DNA of 64,000 nt from Sulfurimonadaceae bacterium (GCA_041571435.1 JBFFUI010000004.1:30525-94524), one strand, 5' to 3'. Shown: positions 52,265 to 63,504, numbered from the stretch's first letter. The notes: generated by a model not told the origin, from the sequence alone. Translations and numbers: made by a program.

Positions 52265-52793
52265 ACGTTTTGCACGCAAGTGCCGCAAAAATATTGCCGA
52301 AAAGGTCCAAAAGAGAGAGACAGATGCCGCGGCATATGTGCTTGACAAAGAGAAAGCGACCCTGAACACCATCGAAGCGTGGCGGGTACTTTCGACGGCC
52401 GAGTGGCAGCAGGAGCTTCAGTCACGAAGGCAGCAGGGCGAGCGGCGTATCGCCGATGAGGTTGACCGGCAGTGGTCCGCGTTTAAAAAAGAGCGCAAAA
52501 AGGAGCTGAAAGCGGCGTTGAGAAGACGTTTACAAGAGGAATTTCCAGCGCTGGCAGCCTGTTTCGTCGACTGGGTCGCAGGTCGCTATGAAAGCGGTGT
52601 TTTCACAATGCCAAAAGCCTATTGGTCACTGGTGAAGGGTGAACGGTTTGAGGTGCAGGAGTGTAATGAAGAGCAGCTCATCTTCGCAAACGGCAACCTC
52701 TTCATCGAGTATTCGGTCGAACGCATTATTGATGAACTCGGCGACGAGATCGCGAAACAGATGCATTTTGAGGAGAACGAATGGCAAGCATAA
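52236..52793 (+). CDS. V/A-type ATPase subunit E-like (divergent)
   Basis: TTG start with AAGGAG RBS; N-terminal coiled coil plus small globular domain; lies between subunits F and A. Confidence 0.7.
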   Translation: MPISSVSDFERFARKCRKNIAEKVQKRETDAAAYVLDKEKATLNTIEAWRVLSTAEWQQELQSRRQQGERRIADEVDRQWSAFKKERKKELKAALRRRLQEEFPALAACFVDWVAGRYESGVFTMPKAYWSLVKGERFEVQECNEEQLIFANGNLFIEYSVERIIDELGDEIAKQMHFEENEWQA

Positions 52794-54526
52794 TCTCAAT
52801 TTTGGGCCCTATTGTCAAGGTCCGCCTCAGTGGTGAAAACGTCCGGATCCAGGATGTCGCCTATGTGGGCGAGGCCGGTCTGGTCGGCGAGGTGATCGAA
52901 CGCGAACTTGACAGTGCCGTGGTGCAGGTCTATGAAGAGACTGAGGGGCTCAGACTCGGAGAAAATGTGCATTTCACTTCGGAGATGCTCAGTGCGGAGC
53001 TGGGACCGGGACTGCTCGGCGCTATCTACGACGGCATACAACGTCCTCTCACACTGGCGGGTGCCCGGATGGAGAAGGGGCTCAGACTGGCACCGCTGGA
53101 CAGAGAGAAAGCGTGGCATTTCGTTCCGAAGATCAAGGTCGGCGAAAAGCTCAAAGCCGGAGATATCATCGGGGTAGCGGGCGAGAAGGAGGGATTCGCG
53201 TACCGCATTATGGTGCCGCCTGAGATGGAGGGCACCGTCATTTTTGCTGCTGGTGAAGGCGATTACAGAGTCGATGCGTTGGTCGTTGAATTCGAAGGGG
53301 GCGAAAAGCTCAGTATGAGTCAGCGCTGGCCGGTGCGGATACCCCGTCCTTTCAAAGAGCGGGTCGTCTCAGGCAAACCGATGATCACCGGGCAACGGAT
53401 CATCGACTTTCTCTTTCCTATCAGTGAAGGGGGGAGCGCGTCTATACCGGGCGGCTTCGGTACGGGCAAGACCATCCTGCAGCAGACCCTGGCCAAATGG
53501 AGCGATGCCGATATTATCGTCTATATCGGCTGCGGCGAGCGCGGCAACGAGATGACGGAGGTGCTTCAGGAGTTCCCCGAGCTTGAAGATCCAAAAAGCG
53601 GTAAACGGCTCATCGAGCGGACAGTGCTAATTGCCAACACCTCCGATATGCCGGTCTCTGCCCGCGAAGCGTCGATCTACATGGGGCTGACGATCGCAGA
53701 GTACTTTCGTGACATGGGCTATACTGTCGCGCTGATGGCCGACTCAACTTCGCGATGGGCCGAGGCGATGCGCGAGCTCTCCGGACGGATGAACGAACTG
53801 CCGGCAGAAGAGGGCTTCCCTTCATACTTGGCGTCGCGCATTGCTTCGGTCTATGAACGTGCGGGGGCGGTCAAGACACTGGGGGAGCGATCAGGTGCGG
53901 TGACAATGATCGGAGCCGTCTCGCCTCCTGGTGGTGATTTTTCAGAACCGGTGACACGCCATACCCAGCGTTTTACCTCTGTCTTTTGGGCGCTGGACAA
54001 AGAACTGGCAAATGCGCGATTCTACCCCTCCATCAACCATCTACTGAGCCACAGTGCTTATGCGGAGGGCGTCAAGCAGTGGTGGGAGACGGGCTATCCG
54101 GGTTGGGAGGCACTTCGTCTCTGGATCATCGAGCTGCTACAGCGCGACGAGAAACTGCAGCGCATCGTCAAACTCCTCGGCAGCGAAGCCCTGCCGGAGG
54201 ACCAGAAACTGACCCTTTTCATGGCCGACCTTGTCAAAGAGTTCTTTCTGCAGCAAAACGCCTTTGACGAGATCGACATGCACGCTTCACCTGCCAAACA
54301 GATGCGCATGGCTGAGGCTCTGCAGGCTCTGCACGTCTGGTGGGAACGCTGTTACAGCCAAAAAGGAATCCCCGTAGCACAGCTCAAAGAGCAGTCGGCC
54401 GTCCAGGAGCTGCTCTACGCAAGACAGGGTGTCCCCAATAGTGATACGGCGTGGTTTACGGCGTGGAATGAACGGATGCAGGAGCAGTATGAAACACTGC
54501 TGCTCAGTTTTGGAGAGCTTTCATGA
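52781..54526 (+). CDS. ntpA: V/A-type ATPase catalytic subunit A
   Basis: QVYEET.G, ELGPGLLG.IYDGIQRPL, GGFGTGKT, GCGERGNEM, DSTSRWAEA, PAEEGFPSYL and SPPGGDFSEPVT motifs. Confidence 0.97.
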   Translation: MASIISILGPIVKVRLSGENVRIQDVAYVGEAGLVGEVIERELDSAVVQVYEETEGLRLGENVHFTSEMLSAELGPGLLGAIYDGIQRPLTLAGARMEKGLRLAPLDREKAWHFVPKIKVGEKLKAGDIIGVAGEKEGFAYRIMVPPEMEGTVIFAAGEGDYRVDALVVEFEGGEKLSMSQRWPVRIPRPFKERVVSGKPMITGQRIIDFLFPISEGGSASIPGGFGTGKTILQQTLAKWSDADIIVYIGCGERGNEMTEVLQEFPELEDPKSGKRLIERTVLIANTSDMPVSAREASIYMGLTIAEYFRDMGYTVALMADSTSRWAEAMRELSGRMNELPAEEGFPSYLASRIASVYERAGAVKTLGERSGAVTMIGAVSPPGGDFSEPVTRHTQRFTSVFWALDKELANARFYPSINHLLSHSAYAEGVKQWWETGYPGWEALRLWIIELLQRDEKLQRIVKLLGSEALPEDQKLTLFMADLVKEFFLQQNAFDEIDMHASPAKQMRMAEALQALHVWWERCYSQKGIPVAQLKEQSAVQELLYARQGVPNSDTAWFTAWNERMQEQYETLLLSFGELS

Positions 54527-55866
54527 TCATCGAATATACAGGCGCACAGAAACTTAAAGGTTCACTTCTTTTTTTCGAACCTGTAGACGATGTCCGCTAC
54601 GGCGAGAAAGTGGTGATCCGCTCCAACGATAAGGTACTCTACGGTAAGGTCGCGGTGCTCTCCGAGAGCGTGATGCTCATCGAGATACTGGGCGAGCCTT
54701 ACGGTCTCGACATCGATAATCTGAAGGTCCATTTCAGCGGCAGCACTTTTGAGCTCGGGGTAAGCGAGCGTATGCTGGGAAGGGTTCTTAACGCCTTCGG
54801 TGAGCCGACGGACGGCGGGGCTGAACTCCACTATGAGAAGCGCATGCCGATCGGCGGTTCCGCCTACAACCCGGCGCAGCGGAACTATCCGCAGGACTTT
54901 GTACAGACGGGGGTGTCGGCGATCGATGGTCTGAACGTGCTGGTCAAAGGGCAGAAGCTTCCGGTCTTCTCGGTCGCCGGTGCAGCAACCAACGAACTGG
55001 CCGCGCAACTGGTGCGCCAGATACGTCCTTCGGAGAAAAAGGGTGCTGTGGTCTTTGCCGCGATGGGGATAAAGTACGAAGATGCCATGGCGCTTATGCA
55101 GGGCATCAGTGCCGGTGGCAACTTCAACTCGACGGCGGTCTTTTTGAACCTGGCGGACGAGCCGAGCATCAATACCTTGTTGCTGGCACGCTCGGCGCTC
55201 ACTTTTGCAGAGTACCTGGCCTTTGAGAAGGGCTACGACGTCGTCACCATCCTTTACGATATGACCAACTACTGCGACGCCCTCAGAGAGGTCTCGTCGC
55301 GGCGCGAAGAGATCCCGAGCCGAAAAGGGTACCCGGGTTATATGTACAGTGATCTCGCTTCCATTTATGAGCGCGCCGGTATTCTGAAAGGGCATGAGGG
55401 GTCGCTGACACAGATCCCTATCCTGACAATGCCTGATGGTGATATCACCCATCCCATCCCGGATCTTACGGGTTACATCACCGAAGGGCAGATCGTGCTC
55501 GAGCGCGATCTGCAGCAAAAAGGGATCTACCCGCCTATCAATGTCCTGCCGTCGCTTTCGCGCTTGATGAACCATGGGACGGAGCCGCTGCACCGTCGGT
55601 GGTCTGCAGAGATCTATGCCGCTTATGCCAAAGCAAAAAAAGCGGAGATGCTCGCCTCCATCATCGGCGAAGGGGAGATGGCTGAGACAGAGCGCGATTA
55701 CCTCGCTTTCGGCAAGGCTTTTGAACGGCGTTTTATCACCCAGAGAGAGGACGAAGAGCGTACGCTTGACGAGACCATGGCCATAGGATGGGAACTGCTG
55801 AGACTGCTGCCTGTCGGATCGTTGACGCGGCTTAAACCCAAAGATATTGCCGAGCACCTGCAATGA
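54523..55866 (+). CDS. ntpB: V/A-type ATPase subunit B
   Basis: QTGVSAID, GQKLPVFS, DMTNYCDALRE, RKGYPGYMYSDLASIYERAG, THPIPDLTGYITEGQI and VLPSLSRLM motifs. Confidence 0.97.
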   Translation: MIIEYTGAQKLKGSLLFFEPVDDVRYGEKVVIRSNDKVLYGKVAVLSESVMLIEILGEPYGLDIDNLKVHFSGSTFELGVSERMLGRVLNAFGEPTDGGAELHYEKRMPIGGSAYNPAQRNYPQDFVQTGVSAIDGLNVLVKGQKLPVFSVAGAATNELAAQLVRQIRPSEKKGAVVFAAMGIKYEDAMALMQGISAGGNFNSTAVFLNLADEPSINTLLLARSALTFAEYLAFEKGYDVVTILYDMTNYCDALREVSSRREEIPSRKGYPGYMYSDLASIYERAGILKGHEGSLTQIPILTMPDGDITHPIPDLTGYITEGQIVLERDLQQKGIYPPINVLPSLSRLMNHGTEPLHRRWSAEIYAAYAKAKKAEMLASIIGEGEMAETERDYLAFGKAFERRFITQREDEERTLDETMAIGWELLRLLPVGSLTRLKPKDIAEHLQ

Positions 55867-56465
55867 TCCATGCCAAGAACAAGACCGCACTGCTGGAGCT
55901 TAAAAAAGACCTTGAACTGGTGCATAATGGCGCCGAGATCCTTGAAGAGAAGCGCAATATCCTGCTTAAAGAGATCATCGCGCTTCTGGACGAGGTCGAA
56001 GAGGAGCGCATTAAGCTCAACGAGTCTGTACAGGCGAGTTACCGTCTGCTCATAAAGGCCTTTATGGAGAGCGGAAAAAGTCAGCTCAAAAGAGAGGCGG
56101 CACTGCCGCTCTTTAACGGCAAACTGCAGGTCTATGAAAAGAGTTTCATCGGCATCCTCACCCCCAAGATGAGCTACGAACTGGAGCAGGTGCGTTTCCC
56201 TCTGGACATCAGCGCCGAAACTCTCTTTTTAGAGGTGGCACGCAAGTCCTTCATCGACACGACCGAGCAGATCCTTGCGCTTGTCGAGATAGAGTTCAAA
56301 GCGTGGCGTCTTGCCGAAGAGCTCAAAAAGACCGTTGTCAGGGTTAATGCCCTGCAGAAGTACTATGTGCCGGAATACGACAAGGCCATCAAAGAGACGA
56401 TGGCTTCGCTCGAAGAGGTGGAGCGTGAGTTTTTGATCGTTGTCAAAAAGGCGAAAGAGCGCTAA
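55863..56465 (+). CDS. ntpD: V/A-type ATPase subunit D
   Basis: L..LKK.L....G..IL.EKR N-terminal helix; EL.KT..RVNAL...P and L.E.ERE. Confidence 0.93.
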   Translation: MIHAKNKTALLELKKDLELVHNGAEILEEKRNILLKEIIALLDEVEEERIKLNESVQASYRLLIKAFMESGKSQLKREAALPLFNGKLQVYEKSFIGILTPKMSYELEQVRFPLDISAETLFLEVARKSFIDTTEQILALVEIEFKAWRLAEELKKTVVRVNALQKYYVPEYDKAIKETMASLEEVEREFLIVVKKAKER

Positions 56466-57655: not shown

Positions 57656-58654
57656 TCAAATTTTGTAATTAGGAGCAACCGTTATAACGACTTTTCCCTT
57701 TTTGTGTCCCTCTCCAAAGTACCGCACAGCGTCAGCCGTCTCGCTTAAAGGGTAGCATTTGTCAATGACGGGCGCGACTTTTTTGGCTTCGAAAAGTTCC
57801 TGCATAAGCGCCAGTCCTTTGTTGGGTATGTGGAGCAGAAGACCCATCTTCTTGCTCCCGGTCATGGTGATCAGCGGTCCCAGTAAAATGCTTTGCAAGG
57901 CCTGCATGTTGGCACCTCCAACCAGGAGATAGACTCCGTTGGGCGACAATGAACGTCGGCAGTCGAAGATGGAGTGGTGTGCCTGCATGTCAAGGATGCG
58001 GTCATACTGCTGGCCGTTTTTGGTGAAATTCTCTTTTGTGTAGTCGATGACATGGTCCGCCCCGATGGAGCGGACAAACTCCATCTTCTTAGTGCTGCAG
58101 ACGCCGGTCACTTCGGCACCGAAAGCCTTGCCAAGCTGTACCGCGAAGGTTCCGGCGCCTCCGGAGGCACCGTTGATGAGAAGTCTGTCTCCCGGTTGGA
58201 TCCCGCCAAATTTTTGAAGCCCCTGAAGGGCAAGAAGGGCGGCCTGCGGCGTGGCTGCGGCCTGCTCAAACGTCATCGTCTTCGGTTTAAAAGCCAAGGC
58301 ATCTTCACGGGCGCAGACATATTCGGCAAAACCACCGAAGCCGCAGCCGGAGAGATCCCCGAATACTTCGTCACCCGCGCGGAACTGTTTAACGTTTTTG
58401 CCAACCTCCGCGACCTCACCCGCGATGTCACAGCCCAGTATCAGGATCTTCGTCGGCTTAAATAGCCCGGCCATCATACGGTTTGCGAAGGGAATGCCTT
58501 GGAGGAGCTGCCAGTCCCAATCATTGACAGAGACCGTATGTACTTTGACAAGCACTTCATCGTCCTTTGGTGTCGGTTTATCATACTCACTCAGTTCGAG
58601 ATCGTCAGGCCCACCGTACTTTCTGAAAATAACCGCTTTCATAACCTTCTCCAT
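57656..58654 (-). CDS. Zn-independent MDR family NAD(P)-dependent oxidoreductase (quinone oxidoreductase-like)
   Basis: YGGPD.L, SVNDWD, GCDIAGEV, GGFAEY, INGASGGAG, GADHVIDY and GKVVI motifs. Confidence 0.9.
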   Translation of the reverse strand: MEKVMKAVIFRKYGGPDDLELSEYDKPTPKDDEVLVKVHTVSVNDWDWQLLQGIPFANRMMAGLFKPTKILILGCDIAGEVAEVGKNVKQFRAGDEVFGDLSGCGFGGFAEYVCAREDALAFKPKTMTFEQAAATPQAALLALQGLQKFGGIQPGDRLLINGASGGAGTFAVQLGKAFGAEVTGVCSTKKMEFVRSIGADHVIDYTKENFTKNGQQYDRILDMQAHHSIFDCRRSLSPNGVYLLVGGANMQALQSILLGPLITMTGSKKMGLLLHIPNKGLALMQELFEAKKVAPVIDKCYPLSETADAVRYFGEGHKKGKVVITVAPNYKI

Positions 58655-58780: not shown

Positions 58781-59197
58781 TCAGTATGTGTGTAAAGGGG
58801 TGCGCTTATGCCGATAGTTTTTTTTTGGTTTGCACCATTGCTGAGCAGCGTCAAGCGAGGTGAAGATGCGGACTTCACCTGACCCCTCCAGATTCTGAAA
58901 AAGGGCAGCAAACTCATGACATAATCCTAGAGAGTAGATATCTCTGGCAACAAGCGCCTTTTTTATATATTGCACCGAGAGTGTCGAAGCCCAAGTGATG
59001 TAGGCCGGTTGCTTGACATCCTCTTTAGTGATATCAGACGTATCGCAGTCAAGAAAATTCCATATTGAACAGTGGTAGTGTGCGAAGGCTCTGCTTCCAT
59101 GCAGAATACCATTCGCCTCGTTCACCTCTATGATGTCGGTTCGATTGAAAAAGGTGAAGAGGCTTGCGTTATCTCCCCAAGTCACATCGTACGCCAC
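58781..59197 (-). CDS. Hypothetical protein (possibly SpoIIAA-like fold)
   Basis: GTG start with AGAGGAG RBS; C-terminal RIFTSLDAAQQW resembles SpoIIAA-like proteins. Confidence 0.6.
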   Translation of the reverse strand: MAYDVTWGDNASLFTFFNRTDIIEVNEANGILHGSRAFAHYHCSIWNFLDCDTSDITKEDVKQPAYITWASTLSVQYIKKALVARDIYSLGLCHEFAALFQNLEGSGEVRIFTSLDAAQQWCKPKKNYRHKRTPLHTY

Positions 59198-59351: not shown

Positions 59352-59380
59352 TGTATAATATAGACAAGAGCTAAAGGAGC
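59352..59380 (+). promoter_or_regulatory. -10 box and RBS of the hydrogenase operon
   Basis: tgTATAAT at about 59352-59359 and AAGGAG just upstream of ATG 59385. Confidence 0.55.
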
Positions 59381-59384
59381 AGTC

Positions 59385-61814
59385 ATGCGTGTAGTGATAG
59401 TTGGTGGCGGGATCGCGGCGGTCTATATGGCCAATGCACTGATCCAAAAGTCACCTCAGACAGATGTCCTTATTGTCTCGGGCGAATCCTATAACCCTTA
59501 TGACCGTATTCACCTCTGCTCTCTTGTTGATGGCAGTGCGACAGTGGATGACATTGCATTGGAACTCGACGAACGGGTCAGGATGGAGCTGGATCAGCAC
59601 ATTGCTTCCGTCGATCCTGTCTCCAAACGTATCTTCTCCGAAAACGCGAGCTATGCCTACGACAAGCTCATCATCGCAACCGGTTCCAAGCCGCGTGCGC
59701 TTTTTGACATCGCCGGGATCGACAATGCTTCCACCTTTCGCAGTGCCAAAGACAGTTTTGCGATTGCAGACAAGATAGCAGGTGCGAACGTGGTGCTGGT
59801 GGGCAGCGGTCCCATCGGGCTGGAACTGCTGGACACCCTGAGCCGTATGGACGCGCCAAAGAGTATCACCCTGTTGTCGCGTTCCGAAAGCCTCTACGCC
59901 AAGGACCTGACGCCGACCGCGGTTGCCCTGGTCACCAGGACCTTTGAGCAGGATGAGCGGGTCAGGATCTTGTTCAATGACGAGATCGTCGACAAGAGGG
60001 TCGAAAACGGTCATATCACCAGCGTGCAGACGAAAACGACGACGATAGAGGAGCCGTACGTTATCTTCGGGGTCGGGATCTCCCCCAATGTCGATTTTGC
60101 CCGTGAGACTCTGGCGTGCGAACGCGGGATTATCGTGGATGCGCAGATGCAGAGTTCGGTCGCCGACATCTACGCGGTCGGCGAAGCGGCGCAGATGAAA
60201 GACGGCTACAGCACCGGCCATGTCAAGGAGTGCACGCGCGAGGCCGATGCGGCGATAGCGCACATCGTGGGCGAAGTCTCTGAAGGTTTTATGCGCGAGG
60301 TGAGCATGGACGCCCTGAAGGTGGGTGCTTTTTTACTTGCAGATGTCACGTCACCGTCATACGATGCCAAAGATACGACCAATGAAGAGGTCGTTATTGC
60401 GTCAAAAGCCGACAACCGGATCGACCAGTACATCATCAACCATGAGCGGTTGGTCCGTTTTATCGGGATCAACTCCAACATCGACCTGATGGCGCTTAAG
60501 ACACTCATGGAGAAGGATAAAGCGGTCGATCCGGCCTTTTTCTATGCCAACCGTCTCGAGAGCGGCCGCGGCAAACTTGTCTGCTCCTGTACGGGAAGCC
60601 ATGAGAAGGACCTTGTCGAGATCATTCAGTCCAATGCGGTGACGGACTTTGCCGAGCTCAAAGCCTTCAGCGAGGCGGGACGGGTCTGCGGGCGCTGCAA
60701 GAAAGAGGTAGCTGAACTTATCGCTTCGACCGAGGTGGATCCCATCGAAGCGGCACGTTTGAAAACCGAACGCGAGGCGGCAGCAGAGGCGGCGAAACTG
60801 GAGAAGGTGCGCCGCCGCATCGCGAAGTTCAACACCCTCCATCCGCGCAACCAGATCAGCGAGACCAACCTCGAAGAGGCGATGCACTCTCTGGACATCA
60901 GCGAAGACTACAACCGCTGGGTCTCGATGGTGACGGCGACAATGCGGCTGCACCCCGACTATGAAGAGGAGGTGGGCAAAGGGGTCAAGGCGCTCAACAA
61001 GATTCCCATCATCTGGCTGGAACTTGCCGACTGTTCGGGCAACTCAGAGGCCTTCATAAAATCCGCCAATCCCGAAGTGGACGAGCTGATCCTCAACTAC
61101 ATCTCGCTGGACTACCATGAACTGCTGATGAGTGCATCGGGTGATGCCTCGGAAAGTGTGCTTGATGATCTCATCAAAAACGATGCCGGTCAGTATATCC
61201 TGCTGGTCGAGGGGGCGATTCCGCTGGGACTCGAGGGTAAGTTCCTGCGTATCGGTCCCAAAGGGGAGACGGGGCTGGAGCTGCTGCGCCGTACTGCCGA
61301 AAAGGCGGCGGCGGTCATCGCCGTAGGCTCATGTGCCTATGACGGCGGTGTCGTTGCTGCGGCACCCAACCCGACGGGTGCCGTCGGTGTTTCAGAGGCG
61401 TTGGGGCGCGATGACATCATCAACCTGCCGCAGTGCCCGGTCAACCCGGTCAACATCGTCGGCACGCTGCTGCACTACCTGATGTTCGAGGAGTTCCCTG
61501 AGCTGGATGAAAAACGGCGGCCGAAATGGGCCTACAGCTACCGCATTCACGACAACTGCGAACGCCGAGGCCATTATGACGCGGGCGAGTTTGTCAAAGA
61601 GTGGGGCGACGAAGGGGCCAAGAAAGGGTGGTGCCTTTTTGAGATGGGGTGCAAAGGACCCTACGCCGACCTGAACTGTTCGGTGGTGCGTTTCAACGAG
61701 GGGACCAACTGGCCGGTCGGTGTCGGCCACGGCTGTTTTGCCTGCGGCGAAGGTAAAGTCGCTTTTGACAAGTATGCCAATAATCGACCGGTAGAGGATG
61801 AGAACAATGAGTAA
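59385..61814 (+). CDS. Fusion protein: NirB-like FAD/NAD(P)H oxidoreductase + BFD-like [2Fe-2S] + [NiFe]-hydrogenase small subunit
   Basis: Flavoprotein motifs IVGGGIAA, PYDR, IIATGS, VGSGPIGLE and YAVGE. BFD motif C400-x-C402-x32-C435-x2-C438. Small-subunit motifs IIWLELADCSGNSE, VEGAIP, GSCA, PQCP, HDNCERR, WCLFEMGCKGP, C..VRFN and WP..VGHGCFAC. Confidence 0.92.
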   Translation: MRVVIVGGGIAAVYMANALIQKSPQTDVLIVSGESYNPYDRIHLCSLVDGSATVDDIALELDERVRMELDQHIASVDPVSKRIFSENASYAYDKLIIATGSKPRALFDIAGIDNASTFRSAKDSFAIADKIAGANVVLVGSGPIGLELLDTLSRMDAPKSITLLSRSESLYAKDLTPTAVALVTRTFEQDERVRILFNDEIVDKRVENGHITSVQTKTTTIEEPYVIFGVGISPNVDFARETLACERGIIVDAQMQSSVADIYAVGEAAQMKDGYSTGHVKECTREADAAIAHIVGEVSEGFMREVSMDALKVGAFLLADVTSPSYDAKDTTNEEVVIASKADNRIDQYIINHERLVRFIGINSNIDLMALKTLMEKDKAVDPAFFYANRLESGRGKLVCSCTGSHEKDLVEIIQSNAVTDFAELKAFSEAGRVCGRCKKEVAELIASTEVDPIEAARLKTEREAAAEAAKLEKVRRRIAKFNTLHPRNQISETNLEEAMHSLDISEDYNRWVSMVTATMRLHPDYEEEVGKGVKALNKIPIIWLELADCSGNSEAFIKSANPEVDELILNYISLDYHELLMSASGDASESVLDDLIKNDAGQYILLVEGAIPLGLEGKFLRIGPKGETGLELLRRTAEKAAAVIAVGSCAYDGGVVAAAPNPTGAVGVSEALGRDDIINLPQCPVNPVNIVGTLLHYLMFEEFPELDEKRRPKWAYSYRIHDNCERRGHYDAGEFVKEWGDEGAKKGWCLFEMGCKGPYADLNCSVVRFNEGTNWPVGVGHGCFACGEGKVAFDKYANNRPVEDENNE

Positions 61815-63504
61815 AAATAAGAAGATCGTGATTGATCCGATTACACGAATAGAGGGGCACCTGCGCATCGAAGTCGAGGTCGATGAAGAGAATGTCATAC
61901 AGGAAGCCTGGGCTTCGGGGCAGCTTTTTCGCGGTATCGAGCTCATTCTCAAAGGACGTGACCCGCGTGATGCCGGGCTGATCGCCCAGCGCATCTGCGG
62001 GGTCTGTACCAACGTCCACTACCGCGCTTCCATCGCATCGGTCGAGAATGCCTACGGCATTGTCCCGCCCAAAAACGCCGAGATCGTGCGCAACCTCATA
62101 AGCCTTGCGCTCTTCGTGCAGGACCATGTGGTGCACTACTATCACCTGCATTCGCTCGACTATGTCGATGTGGTGAGCGCCCTGGACGCCGACATTGATA
62201 AAGCGCTGCAGACTGCACAGCACTACCACAAGAGTCCCTACCGCGCTTCCGCCGGGCATCTGGAAACCGTCAAAGAGAAGCTGGCCTCTTTTGTCGGGGC
62301 CGGGCGATTGGGCCTCTTTGCCAACGGCTACTGGGGGCATGAACGTTACCGGCTGACGCCCGAGCAGAACCTGGTGCACATGAACCACTATCTCGAGGCA
62401 CTGCGTCTGCAGCGGGAGCTGAGCAAAGCGATCGCCATCTTCGCCGGCAAGACGCCGCACCCGCAAAACCTTGTCGTCGGCGGGGTCACCAGCGTGATGG
62501 ACATGCTCAACCCGCAGCGGCTCAATGACTACCTCTTTATCCTCAAAGATGCCTGGGAATTTATCGAACGGGCGTATCTGCCGGATATGAAGATGATCGT
62601 CGAGGCGTACAGAGAGGAGATCCAAAGCGGCGACGGGCGCGGATGCGGCAACTTTCTTGCCTGCGGCGGGTATGACCTTGGCAATGAGGGGCCTCTCTTT
62701 GCAAGCGGTATTGTCAAAGGGTCCGATTTTGATGATGTTCTCGCTTTCGATGTCACGAAAGTGACCGAAGATGTGACGCGTAGCTGGTATGAAGGCAAAG
62801 GCAAGAGTGACCCGTATGCGGGGGATAGCGAACCGCACTACACCGACCTGAACGAAGACGGTACACTGAAAAGTGAAGGCAAATACAGCTGGATCAAGGC
62901 CCCGCGCTACGACGGTATGGCGATGGAGGTCGGACCGGTGGCCAGAATGCTCATCGGCTACAGCAAAGGGGCAAAAAGTGTCACGATGTATCTGCAGCAG
63001 TTCATGGACGACACGGGGATGGGAATGCAGGACTTTGACACGACCATCGGCCGTAATGCAGCCCGCGCCGTCGAAGCACAGGTCTGCTGTGCCGCCACTT
63101 TTGAATATATGAACGACCTTATCGAGAACATCAAGTATTACGACGAAGAAACCTGGACGAAGTATGACTTTGAGGCATTGCCGACCACGGCAGAGGGGCA
63201 TGCCTTTTTTGAGGTGCCGCGCGGCGTGCTTTCGCACTTTGTCCGCATCGAAGATGCCAAGATCGCCAACTATCAGGTTATTGCCCCGACCACATGGAAC
63301 GCTTCGCCGAAAGATGAGGATGATCGGCGCGGCCCTTACGAAGAGGCACTTGTCGGTCTAAAACTTGCCGACCCGTCGCAGCCGCTCGAAGTGCTGCGTA
63401 CGGTACACTCCTTTGACCCCTGTCTGGCCTGTGCGGTGCATGTTATGGATATAAAAGGAGAGGAGATCAGCGCGTATAAGATTGGATCGGCGTGTAGTAT
63501 TTAA
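61807..63504 (+). CDS. [NiFe]-hydrogenase large subunit (group 1-like)
   Basis: IDPITRIEGHL, RGIE.ILKGRDPRD, L1 QRICGVC, YSWIKAPRY, PRG.LSH, L2 SFDPCLACAVH, plus a 20-aa cleavable tail. Start MSKNK follows GAGG. Confidence 0.96.
   Translation: MSKNKKIVIDPITRIEGHLRIEVEVDEENVIQEAWASGQLFRGIELILKGRDPRDAGLIAQRICGVCTNVHYRASIASVENAYGIVPPKNAEIVRNLISLALFVQDHVVHYYHLHSLDYVDVVSALDADIDKALQTAQHYHKSPYRASAGHLETVKEKLASFVGAGRLGLFANGYWGHERYRLTPEQNLVHMNHYLEALRLQRELSKAIAIFAGKTPHPQNLVVGGVTSVMDMLNPQRLNDYLFILKDAWEFIERAYLPDMKMIVEAYREEIQSGDGRGCGNFLACGGYDLGNEGPLFASGIVKGSDFDDVLAFDVTKVTEDVTRSWYEGKGKSDPYAGDSEPHYTDLNEDGTLKSEGKYSWIKAPRYDGMAMEVGPVARMLIGYSKGAKSVTMYLQQFMDDTGMGMQDFDTTIGRNAARAVEAQVCCAATFEYMNDLIENIKYYDEETWTKYDFEALPTTAEGHAFFEVPRGVLSHFVRIEDAKIANYQVIAPTTWNASPKDEDDRRGPYEEALVGLKLADPSQPLEVLRTVHSFDPCLACAVHVMDIKGEEISAYKIGSACSI

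What the first reader, a model, noticed from the sequence alone, without database searches (positions are those of the whole stretch)
59385..63504. Cytoplasmic NAD(P)-linked [NiFe]-hydrogenase apparently built from a group 1 enzyme by fusion to a NirB-like flavoprotein
Seen in sequence: one uninterrupted 809-aa ORF joins a two-Rossmann FAD/NAD(P)H oxidoreductase (aa ~1-390), a BFD-type C-x-C-x32-C-x2-C [2Fe-2S] motif and a complete hydrogenase small subunit with all three cluster sites. Its end overlaps a group 1-like large subunit. It has no N-terminal Tat leader and ends about 18 residues after the last Cys without a TM anchor. No cytochrome b (hydC) gene follows; the next gene is a convergent hydrolase. 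Established: group 1 hydrogenases are normally Tat-exported and quinone/cytochrome-linked, while NAD(P)-coupled ones are group 3 enzymes with HoxFU or sulfhydrogenase modules. Flavoprotein plus BFD is the electron-input module of NirB nitrite reductase. Inference: a soluble two-subunit H2:NAD(P)+ oxidoreductase (H2 -> NiFe -> 3 FeS -> 2Fe-2S -> FAD -> NAD(P)), convergent with group 3. It could supply reductant to an autotroph without reverse electron transport. I do not know of a characterised enzyme with this architecture.
Basis: partly seen in the sequence, partly recalled or inferred. Interest (0 to 1): 0.92.

Follow-up and report, generated by a model that had tools for sequence, protein, structure and literature searches.

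The report
Flavoprotein-fused cytoplasmic nickel-iron hydrogenase
A sulfur bacterium's two-gene nickel-iron hydrogenase has its small subunit fused to an NAD(P)H-binding flavoprotein; genome papers have noted this design since 2006 but nobody has tested it biochemically, so this is one more member of a known, uncharacterised enzyme type.

Summary
One 809-aa ORF (59385..61814) joins a ferredoxin-reductase-type FAD/NAD(P)H flavoprotein, a BFD [2Fe-2S] domain and a [NiFe] small subunit. It overlaps a group-1 large subunit gene (61798..63504) by 17 nt. It is not a chimera: more than 120 protein clusters keep the full fusion, and contigs from runs of four studies bridge the junction.

Two corrections: the proximal cluster motif reads C-x-x-N, not C-x-x-C, and the tail after the last Cys is 22 residues.

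The novelty claim fails. Scott et al. 2006 described this architecture and the H2/NAD(H) idea for Thiomicrospira crunogena XCL-2. Hansen and Perner 2016 reported it in Sulfuricurvum, Sulfurovum, Sulfurimonas and Arcobacter. This scan met it three times on other DNA. My searches found no biochemical test, and the published physiology is negative or ambiguous.

- The linker is a disabled Tat leader homologous to Campylobacterota HydA leaders.
- The Asn is invariant and also occurs in conventional Tat-type HydA.
- The coenzyme site lacks the NADH-marking acidic residue, hinting at NADP(H).
- The paired large subunits form one clade beside cytochrome-b-linked HydB.
- An Ech-type hydrogenase lies adjacent in 4 of 23 loci.

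Best reading: a cytoplasmic H2:NAD(P)+ oxidoreductase (about 0.55).

The parts
59373..59379 (+). Ribosome-binding site AAAGGAG, 5 nt before the start codon
   Evidence: Read directly from the sequence printed
59385..61814 (+). Fused small-subunit gene (809 aa): flavoprotein, BFD, linker and [NiFe] small subunit
   Evidence: ORF; domains; full-length homologs
59385..60554 (+). FAD/NAD(P)H flavoprotein of the ferredoxin-reductase / NirB N-terminal type (aa 1-~390). FAD motif G7-G-G9. NAD(P) motif G140-x-G142-P with invariant R166. Invariant C45 and C283 of unknown role
   Evidence: Pfam PF07992; PDB sequence hits; Foldseek TM 0.81-0.84 to putidaredoxin reductase and BphA4; conservation; pLDDT about 90
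60576..60725 (+). BFD-type [2Fe-2S] domain (aa 398-447); ligands C400, C402, C435, C438
   Evidence: PF04324; all four Cys present in 121 of 121 homologs
60747..61004 (+). Conserved linker (aa ~455-540), a disabled Tat leader homologous to the whole N-terminal leader of Campylobacterota HydA. HydA's RR[DE]F[LM]KW corresponds to SE-DYNRW here
   Evidence: BLASTP to this genome's own HydA; MAFFT with four conventional HydA leaders; TIGR00391 alignment starts at residue 493; conservation
61005..61811 (+). [NiFe] small-subunit domain (aa 541-809). Proximal site C550/N553/C650/C684; distal H722/C725/C750/C756; medial C765/C784/C787. No C-terminal anchor
   Evidence: Alignment to Hyd-2 small subunit; invariance; polar C-terminus
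61798..63504 (+). [NiFe] large subunit (568 aa), group 1b type. Ni-binding motifs RICGVC and DPCLAC. Has a C-terminal extension after His (VMDIKGEEISAYKIGSACSI) that would need an endopeptidase
   Evidence: PF00374, 663 bits; PDB ranking and alignment; tree; C-termini printed

Best explanation
The two genes encode a cytoplasmic, two-subunit [NiFe]-hydrogenase of group 1b ancestry.

Origin (inferred): a NirB-type reductase module (FAD, NAD(P)H site and BFD [2Fe-2S]) was fused in front of the Tat leader of a Campylobacterota HydA-type small subunit. The twin-arginine motif was lost and the leader kept as a linker. The membrane anchor and the cytochrome b partner were dropped. Export is therefore abolished, and the Fe-S wire ends at a flavin instead of a quinone-reducing cytochrome.

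Proposed electron path (inferred): H2 at the NiFe site, then the proximal [4Fe-4S] (3 Cys + Asn), the medial [3Fe-4S], the distal [4Fe-4S], the BFD [2Fe-2S], FAD and finally NAD(P)+. The coenzyme site suggests that NADP(H) is accepted or preferred.

Proposed role (inferred): in this rTCA autotroph it would make reduced pyridine nucleotide from H2 without reverse electron transport. The reaction is reversible in principle.

Shown here: the architecture, its conservation, its ancestry, and the loss of the export and anchoring features.

Not shown: cellular location, the electron path, the coenzyme and the direction of the reaction.
For: Domains and ligands:
- 10 of 11 canonical small-subunit ligands, all four BFD cysteines, both dinucleotide motifs and Asn553 are present in 121 of 121 full-length homologs of 53-100% identity. 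This indicates purifying selection on a working electron chain.
- Cys-to-Asn at proximal position 2 is a known natural variant (Nostoc HupS). The engineered C81D/N enzyme was active (passages and Table 1 of PMC4070099).
- The same CxGN motif stands in conventional Tat-type, cytochrome-b-linked HydA of S. paralvinellae, G174 and G285.

Loss of export and anchoring:
- The linker (residues 475-540) aligns to residues 8-73 of this genome's own HydA leader, with the RR motif destroyed.
- The tail is polar with no anchor.
- Cytochrome b directly after the paired large subunit: 0 of 23 loci.

Reductase module:
- It folds like NAD(P)H:ferredoxin reductases that serve [2Fe-2S] partners (TM 0.81-0.84).
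- It matches positions 1-465 of the NirB model.
- BphA4 Glu175, whose charge is proposed to exclude NADP, corresponds to Ser165 here (Ser/Val/Ala across the family), followed by invariant Arg166.

Ancestry and maturation:
- The large subunit is group 1 and keeps its Ni ligands.
- A HycI protease gene directly follows the large subunit in 9 of 23 loci.

Physiology:
- This genome has ATP-citrate lyase.
- In H. crunogenus SP-41 the orthologous hynL was expressed most when H2 was the only electron donor.
- Scott et al. 2006 reached the same proposal.
Against: - No activity has been shown for any member.
- H. crunogenus XCL-2, whose only hydrogenase is this type, consumed no H2 under all tested conditions, and no cell fraction was active.
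- In SP-41 and related strains hydrogenase activity was found in membrane fractions, not soluble ones.
- The medial cluster is a 3-Cys site, presumably a high-potential [3Fe-4S]. The effect of the Asn on the proximal cluster's potential is unknown.
- This genome has a single HycI protease gene, in the other hydrogenase operon, so maturation of this large subunit depends on sharing it.
- The same-genus genome G276 gave only a conventional small-subunit match with this query, so the enzyme appears dispensable.
- Two invariant cysteines in the flavoprotein (C45, C283) are unexplained by this model.
- The AF2 model gave no reliable geometry between the modules (pTM 0.58, small-subunit part mostly below pLDDT 60), so cofactor distances are untested.
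Confidence: 0.55

Rival explanations
1. Same enzyme and chemistry, opposite physiological direction. It acts as a redox valve that oxidises excess NAD(P)H to H2 when electron acceptors are scarce.
For: Scott et al. 2006 proposed this as an alternative. XCL-2 with only this enzyme does not consume H2. The reaction lies close to equilibrium at low H2 (established thermodynamics, recalled).
Against: In SP-41, expression was highest with H2 as the sole donor. The ancestry is from uptake enzymes, and the 3-Cys medial site is typical of uptake-biased group 1 enzymes. A passage reports that converting [3Fe-4S] to [4Fe-4S] raised H2 evolution.
Confidence: 0.15
2. The flavoprotein passes H2-derived electrons to an acceptor other than NAD(P)+. 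Candidates are O2 (a protective oxidase), a persulfide, polysulfide or CoA-disulfide via the invariant Cys45, or a soluble ferredoxin or rubredoxin. NAD(P)H would be only a second donor.
For: C45 and C283 are invariant in 121 of 121 sequences. C45 lies in the helix after the FAD beta-alpha-beta, where relatives place flavin-facing residues (PPLSK in BphA4). The family also scores on CoA-disulfide reductase, NADH oxidase and CoA-persulfide reductase models and structures. The hosts are sulfur bacteria. A rhodanese or DsrE gene neighbours the pair in 2 of the 10 wide loci scanned.
Against: C45 aligns to Ser of PPLSK or to Pro or Asn in the printed alignments, not to a known redox-active Cys. The closest sequence and fold matches are NAD(P)H:ferredoxin reductases and NirB-family proteins. 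The NAD(P) motif and Arg166 are invariant.
Confidence: 0.12
3. The enzyme works at the membrane after all, docked from the cytoplasmic side to another complex. Candidates are the cytochrome b of the second hydrogenase cluster, or the Ech-type complex that neighbours it in some genomes.
For: Activity was found in membrane fractions of strains carrying this large-subunit type, and Gonnella et al. 2019 speculated about anchoring by cluster II components. An Ech-type group 4 operon lies adjacent in 4 of 23 loci.
Against: SP-41 also has a Tat-type group 1d enzyme with cytochrome b that explains the membrane activity. Most loci have no such neighbour. This genome has no Ech-type large subunit; the best match is 28% identical.
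Confidence: 0.08
4. A catalytically idle or regulatory (H2-sensing) protein, or a decaying gene.
For: No activity was found in XCL-2. Hansen and Perner suggested the Fe-S sites may not bind clusters properly.
Against: The cofactor ligands are invariant across 121 sequences. The Asn variant is natural and functional elsewhere. The large subunit keeps the C-terminal extension and often its own protease gene. No signalling domain or kinase partner appeared under the Pfam scan of neighbours, except one GGDEF/EAL gene in 1 of 10 loci. The ortholog is expressed in SP-41.
Confidence: 0.05
5. Assembly chimera joining an unrelated flavoprotein gene to a hydrogenase gene.
For: None found.
Against: The 120 best hits are all full-length fusions, several on contigs of 0.4-2.9 Mb from isolates. 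17 of 301 Campylobacterota genomes and 12 of 98 genomes of Hydrogenovibrio's order carry it. Contigs of runs from four studies bridge or cover the junction.
Confidence: 0

Closest known systems
'Hydrogenase gene cluster I' of Hydrogenovibrio (Thiomicrospira) crunogenus XCL-2 and SP-41 (Tcr_2037/Tcr_2038; Scott et al. 2006; Hansen and Perner 2016; Gonnella et al. 2019)
   Same: Same architecture: a small subunit of about 810 aa with an N-terminal FAD/NAD pyridine-nucleotide-disulfide-oxidoreductase domain, no Tat motif, no cytochrome b, and a large subunit classed as 1b. The ortholog in Hydrogenovibrio sp. 3SP14C1 is 62% identical over residues 1-803. Its large subunit nests inside the same clade.
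   Different: The host is a Sulfurimonadaceae MAG. Here the pair stands alone, with no adjacent hyp or protease genes, whereas XCL-2 has a compact operon.
Membrane-bound group 1b HydABC of Campylobacterota (Wolinella/Sulfurimonas type)
   Same: The small-subunit domain is 46% identical to this genome's own HydA and 52-53% to several conventional HydA of the family. It shares the homologous leader region, the same cluster ligands including CxGN in several HydA, a large subunit in the neighbouring clade, and a similar C-terminal extension.
   Different: The twin-arginine motif is destroyed, there is no C-terminal anchor and no cytochrome b, and a 450-residue reductase module sits in front.
Group 3d (HoxFUYH) and 3b (sulfhydrogenase) NAD(P)-linked soluble [NiFe]-hydrogenases
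   Same: Proposed function: a cytoplasmic link between H2 and NAD(P) through Fe-S clusters and a flavin.
   Different: The large subunit is not group 3: at most 105 bits to group 3 chains against 491 for the best group 1 chain. The flavin module is a ferredoxin-reductase/NirB-type FAD protein fused in cis. By my recall, group 3d uses a NuoEF-like FMN diaphorase and group 3b uses beta/gamma subunits. This enzyme needs two genes instead of four or more.
NirB N-terminal module and NAD(P)H:ferredoxin reductases (BphA4, putidaredoxin reductase)
   Same: FAD and NAD(P) Rossmann domains followed by, or serving, a [2Fe-2S] centre. TIGR02374 matches model positions 1-465. Foldseek TM is 0.81-0.84.
   Different: The TIGR02374 score of 147 bits is far below the 578-bit cut-off, and there is no sirohaem domain. 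Electrons are proposed to flow towards the flavin. The acidic residue that marks NADH specificity is missing.

Membership tests
Flavoprotein-fused 'cluster I' hydrogenase (H. crunogenus type; described, uncharacterised) | Small subunit of about 810 aa with an N-terminal FAD/NAD(P) oxidoreductase domain in one ORF | tested here: met
   The Hydrogenovibrio ortholog is 62% identical over residues 1-803.
Flavoprotein-fused 'cluster I' hydrogenase (H. crunogenus type; described, uncharacterised) | No Tat motif on the small subunit and no cytochrome b gene | tested here: met
   (RR motif lost); 0 of 23 loci have cytochrome b directly after the large subunit. Searches cover this locus.
Flavoprotein-fused 'cluster I' hydrogenase (H. 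crunogenus type; described, uncharacterised) | Paired large subunit belongs to the same lineage | tested here: met
   19 paired large subunits form one clade, support 100/99, with the Hydrogenovibrio copy inside it.
Group 1b [NiFe]-hydrogenase (prototypical uptake) | Large-subunit sequence affinity and Ni-binding motifs | tested here: met
   Best PDB match is D. vulgaris Miyazaki at 491 bits. The clade lies beside cytochrome-b-linked Campylobacterota HydB and apart from the 1c/1d references. No Desulfovibrio reference was in the tree.
Group 1b [NiFe]-hydrogenase (prototypical uptake) | Tat-dependent export and periplasmic orientation | tested here: not met
   The N-terminus is a Rossmann fold, and the internal leader remnant lacks the twin arginines. 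Location itself was not measured.
Group 1b [NiFe]-hydrogenase (prototypical uptake) | Cytochrome b or c3 as redox partner, with a membrane anchor on the small subunit | tested here: not met
Group 1b [NiFe]-hydrogenase (prototypical uptake) | [quoted passage not shown] | tested here: met
   10 of 11 canonical ligands plus an invariant Asn at proximal position 2. The same variant occurs in conventional HydA and is known from Nostoc HupS. Cluster types were not measured.
Group 3 NAD(P)-linked [NiFe]-hydrogenases (3b, 3d) | Group 3 large subunit | tested here: not met
   At most 105 bits to group 3 chains. NCBIfam sulfhydrogenase models score 65-90 bits against cut-offs of 700-880.
Group 3 NAD(P)-linked [NiFe]-hydrogenases (3b, 3d) | Separate diaphorase (HoxFU) or beta/gamma subunits | tested here: not met
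   None appeared among the neighbours scanned in 10 loci. The whole genome was not searched for HoxFU.
NirB (NADH-nitrite reductase large subunit) | N-terminal FAD/NAD domains plus BFD [2Fe-2S] | tested here: met
   TIGR02374 model positions 1-465 are matched by residues 3-446. PF04324 is present.
NirB (NADH-nitrite reductase large subunit) | C-terminal sirohaem/[4Fe-4S] nitrite reductase domains, and a score above the family cut-off | tested here: not met
   147 bits against a cut-off of 578. The C-terminal half is a hydrogenase small subunit.

The most novel reading that the evidence does not exclude
One fusion event in front of a HydA Tat leader both blocked export and rewired a respiratory group 1b hydrogenase to a flavin. 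The result would be an NADP(H)-preferring, two-gene soluble hydrogenase. Where it sits beside an Ech-type hydrogenase (4 of 23 loci), the pair would supply both NADPH and reduced ferredoxin from H2 for the reverse TCA cycle. That would be a route to NAD(P)-linked hydrogenases independent of group 3, and a compact catalyst for H2-driven NADPH regeneration.
Probability: 0.3. Interest if true: 0.6.

Novelty: new member of a known kind. Interest (0 to 1): 0.35.

Why it matters
If the proposed activity is real, sulfur- and hydrogen-oxidising Campylobacterota and Thiomicrospira-type Gammaproteobacteria would hold a minimal two-gene enzyme that makes NAD(P)H directly from H2. That would change energy budgets for autotrophy at vents and in sulfidic sediments. 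Surveys also class these enzymes as group 1b, a class described as membrane-bound respiratory uptake enzymes, so counts of that class would be misleading. The enzyme would be a second, independent evolutionary route to pyridine-nucleotide-linked [NiFe]-hydrogenases and an attractive cofactor-regeneration catalyst. The design has been in print since 2006, so the value lies in the still-missing biochemistry and not in the discovery of the architecture.

Tried and rejected
- **Assembly chimera:** rejected.
- **Group 2 or group 3 large subunit:** rejected.
- **'The proximal Asn is special to the fusion':** rejected. Of 127 representative small subunits, position 2 is C in 68, N in 16, D in 7, E in 3 and a gap in 25. 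Three of four conventional Campylobacterota HydA also have CxGN.
- **'RRRIAKF (residues 476-482) is the Tat remnant':** my first guess, rejected. The HydA RR motif aligns to residues 506-512 instead.
- **Cofactor geometry from AF2:** the model was confident only for residues 1-450 (pTM 0.58), and no coordinates are available.
Nothing was folded.
- **RNA evidence:** no RNA holder was listed. All laid runs were DNA contigs.
- **Small-subunit-domain quick tree:** the conventional HydA form one clade (99), but the root among the fused rows is unresolved. It adds nothing firm.
- **The search for related loci:** gave only 14 loci, because a single-protein query reaches close relatives only.
- **Literature search for a biochemical characterisation:** searches found none. 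Subscription journals are not covered.
- **Supplements are closed:** Supplementary Figure S5 of PMC4744846 (operon comparison) and the supplementary tables of PMC4584964 could not be seen.
- **Not done:** a test of whether C45 lies next to the flavin, and a genome-wide search for HoxFU.

Full report
**Observation**

One search lists an 809-aa ORF at 59385..61814 (+) and a 568-aa ORF at 61798..63504 (+), overlapping by 17 nt. A Shine-Dalgarno AAAGGAG lies 5 nt before the first ATG.

Pfam finds these domains in the first protein:
- Pyr_redox_2, residues 1-274
- Fer2_BFD, residues 398-447
- Oxidored_q6, residues 550-697
- NiFe_hyd_SSU_C, residues 717-792

The second protein scores 663 bits on NiFeSe_Hases. 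NCBIfam adds hydA TIGR00391 (358 bits, residues 493-792). It also matches the first 465 positions of the 794-position NirB model (147 bits, well below the 578-bit cut-off).

The window ends at its contig's end. A 97%-identical Sulfurimonadaceae MAG locus (L028) shows what lies beyond: a convergent alpha/beta hydrolase, then an ORF with no Pfam match. There is no cytochrome b and no protease.

**Not an artefact**

- The best 120 of 712 database hits are all 807-836 aa with at least 99% coverage and 63-100% identity. Nearly all list PF07992, PF04324, PF01058 and PF14720 together; I saw two rows without PF04324 (P0028, P0050). Several sit on contigs of 0.4-2.9 Mb from named isolates: Hydrogenimonas urashimensis, Sulfurovum sp. 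CS9 and Thiomicrolovo sp..
- Among 301 sampled Campylobacterota genomes, 17 including this one carry the whole fusion in one open frame. An 18th (G262) has a contig-truncated copy that still spans the junction. 12 of the 17 are among the 24 genomes of the window's own family.
- The same-genus genome G276 gave only a conventional small-subunit match.
- In the order of Hydrogenovibrio, 12 of 98 scored genomes have the reductase module and linker inside open frames of 813-884 aa. One genome could not be scored.
- In the library clustered at 50% identity, the family collapses to one full-length representative plus fragments. It is a narrow, recent family.
- Contigs of runs from four studies cover the junction (window ~60726-61032). 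X1 record 5 covers 60249-63491, X5 record 11 covers 60580-61417, and X8 record 24 covers 59526-61567. X6 records 17 and 18 overlap across it.

**Prior description**

- Scott et al. 2006 (PMC1635747; passages read) describe the T. crunogena XCL-2 small subunit (Tcr2038) as having two domains. One is hydrogenase-like; the other resembles pyridine nucleotide-disulphide oxidoreductases, with FAD and NADH sites. It has no twin-arginine leader. They propose direct electron transfer between H2 and NAD(H) in the cytoplasm, or use as a reductant sink.
- Hansen and Perner 2016 (PMC4744846; passages) give the 813-aa size and the lack of cytochrome b. They class the large subunit as 1b. [quoted passage not shown] They also report that XCL-2 showed no activity in any fraction, and they suggest the Fe-S sites may not bind clusters properly.
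- Gonnella et al. 2019 (PMC6501319; passages and section 9) show that SP-41 has this 'cluster I' plus a Tat-type group 1d enzyme with cytochrome b. Cluster I hynL was expressed most with H2 as the only donor. No soluble activity was found.
- Seven literature searches found no biochemical characterisation.
- The 'cytoplasmic hydrogenase' discussed for S. denitrificans is a different, group 2 enzyme.
- Earlier notes of this scan met the same family on three other genomes. Two reached the same verdict as I did independently. One had missed the literature.

**Fe-S sites**

Aligned to Hyd-2 small subunits, the medial site (C765, C784, C787), the distal site (H722, C725, C750, C756) and three proximal ligands (C550, C650, C684) are present. 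The second proximal Cys is Asn553.

In 121 of 121 full-length homologs every one of these residues is unchanged, including Asn553 within D-C-[ST]-G-N-S-E. That set was P0001-P0121; none was dropped by the 790-840 aa length filter.

Three findings show this is not decay:
- Among 127 representative small subunits of at least 250 aa (from P0122-P0270; shorter ones dropped), position 2 is C in 68, N in 16, D in 7, E in 3 and a gap in 25.
- Yonemoto et al. 2014 list Cys-to-Asn at this position as natural in Nostoc HupS, and found the engineered C81D/N enzyme active.
- The conventional, Tat-bearing, cytochrome-b-linked HydA of S. paralvinellae, G174 and G285 have the same CxGN motif, while this genome's own HydA has CTGC.

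The Asn is therefore inherited from a HydA lineage. The worry of Hansen and Perner is weakened.

**The linker is a dead Tat leader**

BLASTP aligns residues 475-789 with residues 8-322 of this genome's own 381-aa HydA (46% identity). The leader is included: HydA's IDRRDFLKW lies opposite ISE-DYNRW.

MAFFT with four conventional HydA leaders gives the same register. It also shows that the long pre-RR extension of Campylobacterota HydA is homologous to residues ~470-500 of the fusion.

Across the family the site reads [SN]-[RKQH]-E-[FY]-N-[RK]-W. At most one basic residue remains where the twin arginines stood.

The linker is well conserved: R478, H486, P487, N489, A499, W512, S514, L522, V530, L537 and P541 are invariant or nearly so. 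AF2 models much of it as helices, but with low confidence beyond residue ~480.

The fusion lacks HydA's last ~59 residues, which hold the anchor.

**Ancestry**

I built a maximum-likelihood tree of 30 large subunits:
- 19 paired with fused small subunits
- 3 conventional Campylobacterota HydB
- HyaB, HoxG and HupL (1d) and HybC (1c)
- 3 Campylobacterota group 2 and one mycobacterial sequence

There was no Desulfovibrio reference. I used 8 of the 14 loci.

The paired subunits form one clade (100/99). It lies next to this genome's own HydB (92/92, a long branch) and then the S. paralvinellae/G174 HydB (90/85). The 1c/1d references fall outside.

The Hydrogenovibrio copy is nested within the Campylobacterota sequences (97/98). 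This fits the horizontal transfer proposed in the literature.

All 19 keep DPC[LI]ACAVH and a C-terminal extension.

**Reductase module**

Sequence hits and Foldseek (TM 0.81-0.84 over about 400 columns) place it with putidaredoxin reductase, BphA4, ArR, TodA, rubredoxin reductases and NirB-family N-terminal domains. These are enzymes that exchange electrons between NAD(P)H/FAD and a [2Fe-2S] or rubredoxin partner.

In the printed alignment to BphA4, positions 175-177 correspond to S165-R166-S167. The family shows [S79/V31/A11]-R(121/121)-[G82/K28/S7] at these positions.

BphA4 Glu175 hydrogen-bonds the adenosine ribose, and its charge is proposed to repel the NADP phosphate. The PDB holds BphA4 E175A/T176R/Q177G and E175C/T176R/Q177G variants (titles). 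That these were made to switch the enzyme to NADPH is my recollection and is not checked.

I infer that NADP(H) is accepted or preferred. This refines the published 'NADH site', but it is inference only.

C45 and C283 are invariant and unexplained. In the printed alignments C45 aligns to the Ser of PPLSK, or to Pro or Asn, in relatives.

**Neighbourhood**

I examined 23 loci: 10 with ±10 kb and 13 of the 14 (L038 left out as truncated). Neighbours were searched by tblastn, and 10 loci were also scanned with Pfam.

- Cytochrome b directly after the paired large subunit: 0 of 23. The three cytochrome b hits lie at least 6 kb away, beside conventional HydAB.
- A HycI protease directly after the large subunit: 9 of 23. 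L031 and L034 are two contigs of one MAG. HypF often follows.
- An Ech-type group 4 operon is adjacent in 4 of 23 (L017, L018, L030, L036). Its large subunit has RVCGLC and DPCMSC. In G152 it directly continues the same strand.
- A TetR gene, a group 2 hydrogenase and a conventional HydA follow in G285 and G174.

In this genome the pair stands alone. The only HycI gene lies in the HydABC operon on contig C56. No Ech-type large subunit was found; the best match is 28% identical. ATP-citrate lyase is present, which fits rTCA autotrophy.

**Mechanism and odds**

The conserved cofactor chain, the loss of export and anchoring, and the reductase type make a cytoplasmic H2:NAD(P)+ oxidoreductase the best reading. 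I put it at about 0.55. This equals the 2006 hypothesis, with NADP(H) as my refinement.

Against it stand:
- the negative physiology of XCL-2
- the absence of soluble activity in SP-41
- the untested geometry between the modules (AF2 pTM 0.58; complex prediction unavailable)
- the unexplained cysteines C45 and C283

Rivals are H2 evolution as a redox valve, another flavin acceptor, membrane docking, and an idle protein.

**Verdict**

The evolutionary and architectural reading is supported, and the function remains inference. Novelty is limited to a new member of a described but uncharacterised kind.

Noticed in passing
window 52781-56465 (+): V-type ATPase subunit genes: ORFs of 581, 447 and 200 aa in a row with overlapping stops and starts. 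I read them as subunits A, B and D from the translations only. They lie just upstream in a Sulfurimonadaceae genome.
   Followed up: no
window 57656-58654 (-) versus L028 2966-3132: A zinc-type alcohol dehydrogenase gene (ADH_N, ADH_zinc_N) sits between the thioredoxin-like gene and the 138-aa ORF in the window. It is absent at the same place in the 97%-identical MAG locus L028. This is a strain-level gene indel next to the hydrogenase.
   Followed up: partly
L017 3548-8057; L018 2999-7516; L036 599-3409; L030 3-971: An Ech-type group 4 [NiFe]-hydrogenase operon (antiporter-like, NuoH-like, NuoB-like, 30-kDa and 49-kDa subunits, the last with RVCGLC and DPCMSC) lies adjacent to the fused hydrogenase in 4 of 23 loci. 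In G152 it directly continues on the same strand.
   Followed up: partly
window 59517-59519 (C45) and 60231-60233 (C283): Two cysteines in the flavoprotein domain are invariant in 121 of 121 homologs. They have no assigned role. In the printed alignments C45 aligns to the Ser of the PPLSK motif of BphA4.
   Followed up: partly
L041 2775-4010; L025 5357-6592 (-); L024 15575-16807: Conventional Tat-type, cytochrome-b-linked HydA of S. paralvinellae and two relatives carry C-x-G-N instead of C-x-x-C at the proximal cluster. They also have an unusually long extension (about 50 residues) in front of the twin-arginine motif.
   Followed up: partly
L022 5126-7883 and 12168-13016; L023 likewise: In G243 and G159 the fused hydrogenase is flanked by a FAD_binding_2 flavoprotein (fumarate reductase or L-aspartate oxidase type), an aldo/keto reductase and a quinolinate phosphoribosyltransferase. 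These are possibly NAD biosynthesis genes beside an NAD(P)-linked enzyme.
   Followed up: no
window 58781-59197 (-): A 138-aa ORF with no Pfam or NCBIfam match lies directly upstream, divergent from the hydrogenase. It is kept in L028 (3132-3548).
   Followed up: no
L031 and L034: One MAG (FK_Sedi_A_Bin.72) holds two contigs with the same fused-hydrogenase locus at the same offsets (64% identity to the query in both). This is either a duplication or redundant assembly.
   Followed up: no
L004 4910-7350 (own genome, contig C56): After HydA-HydB-cytochrome b-HycI come a 600-aa and a 212-aa ORF without Pfam matches. Homologs of the ~212-aa protein recur near hydrogenase genes in six loci.
   Followed up: no
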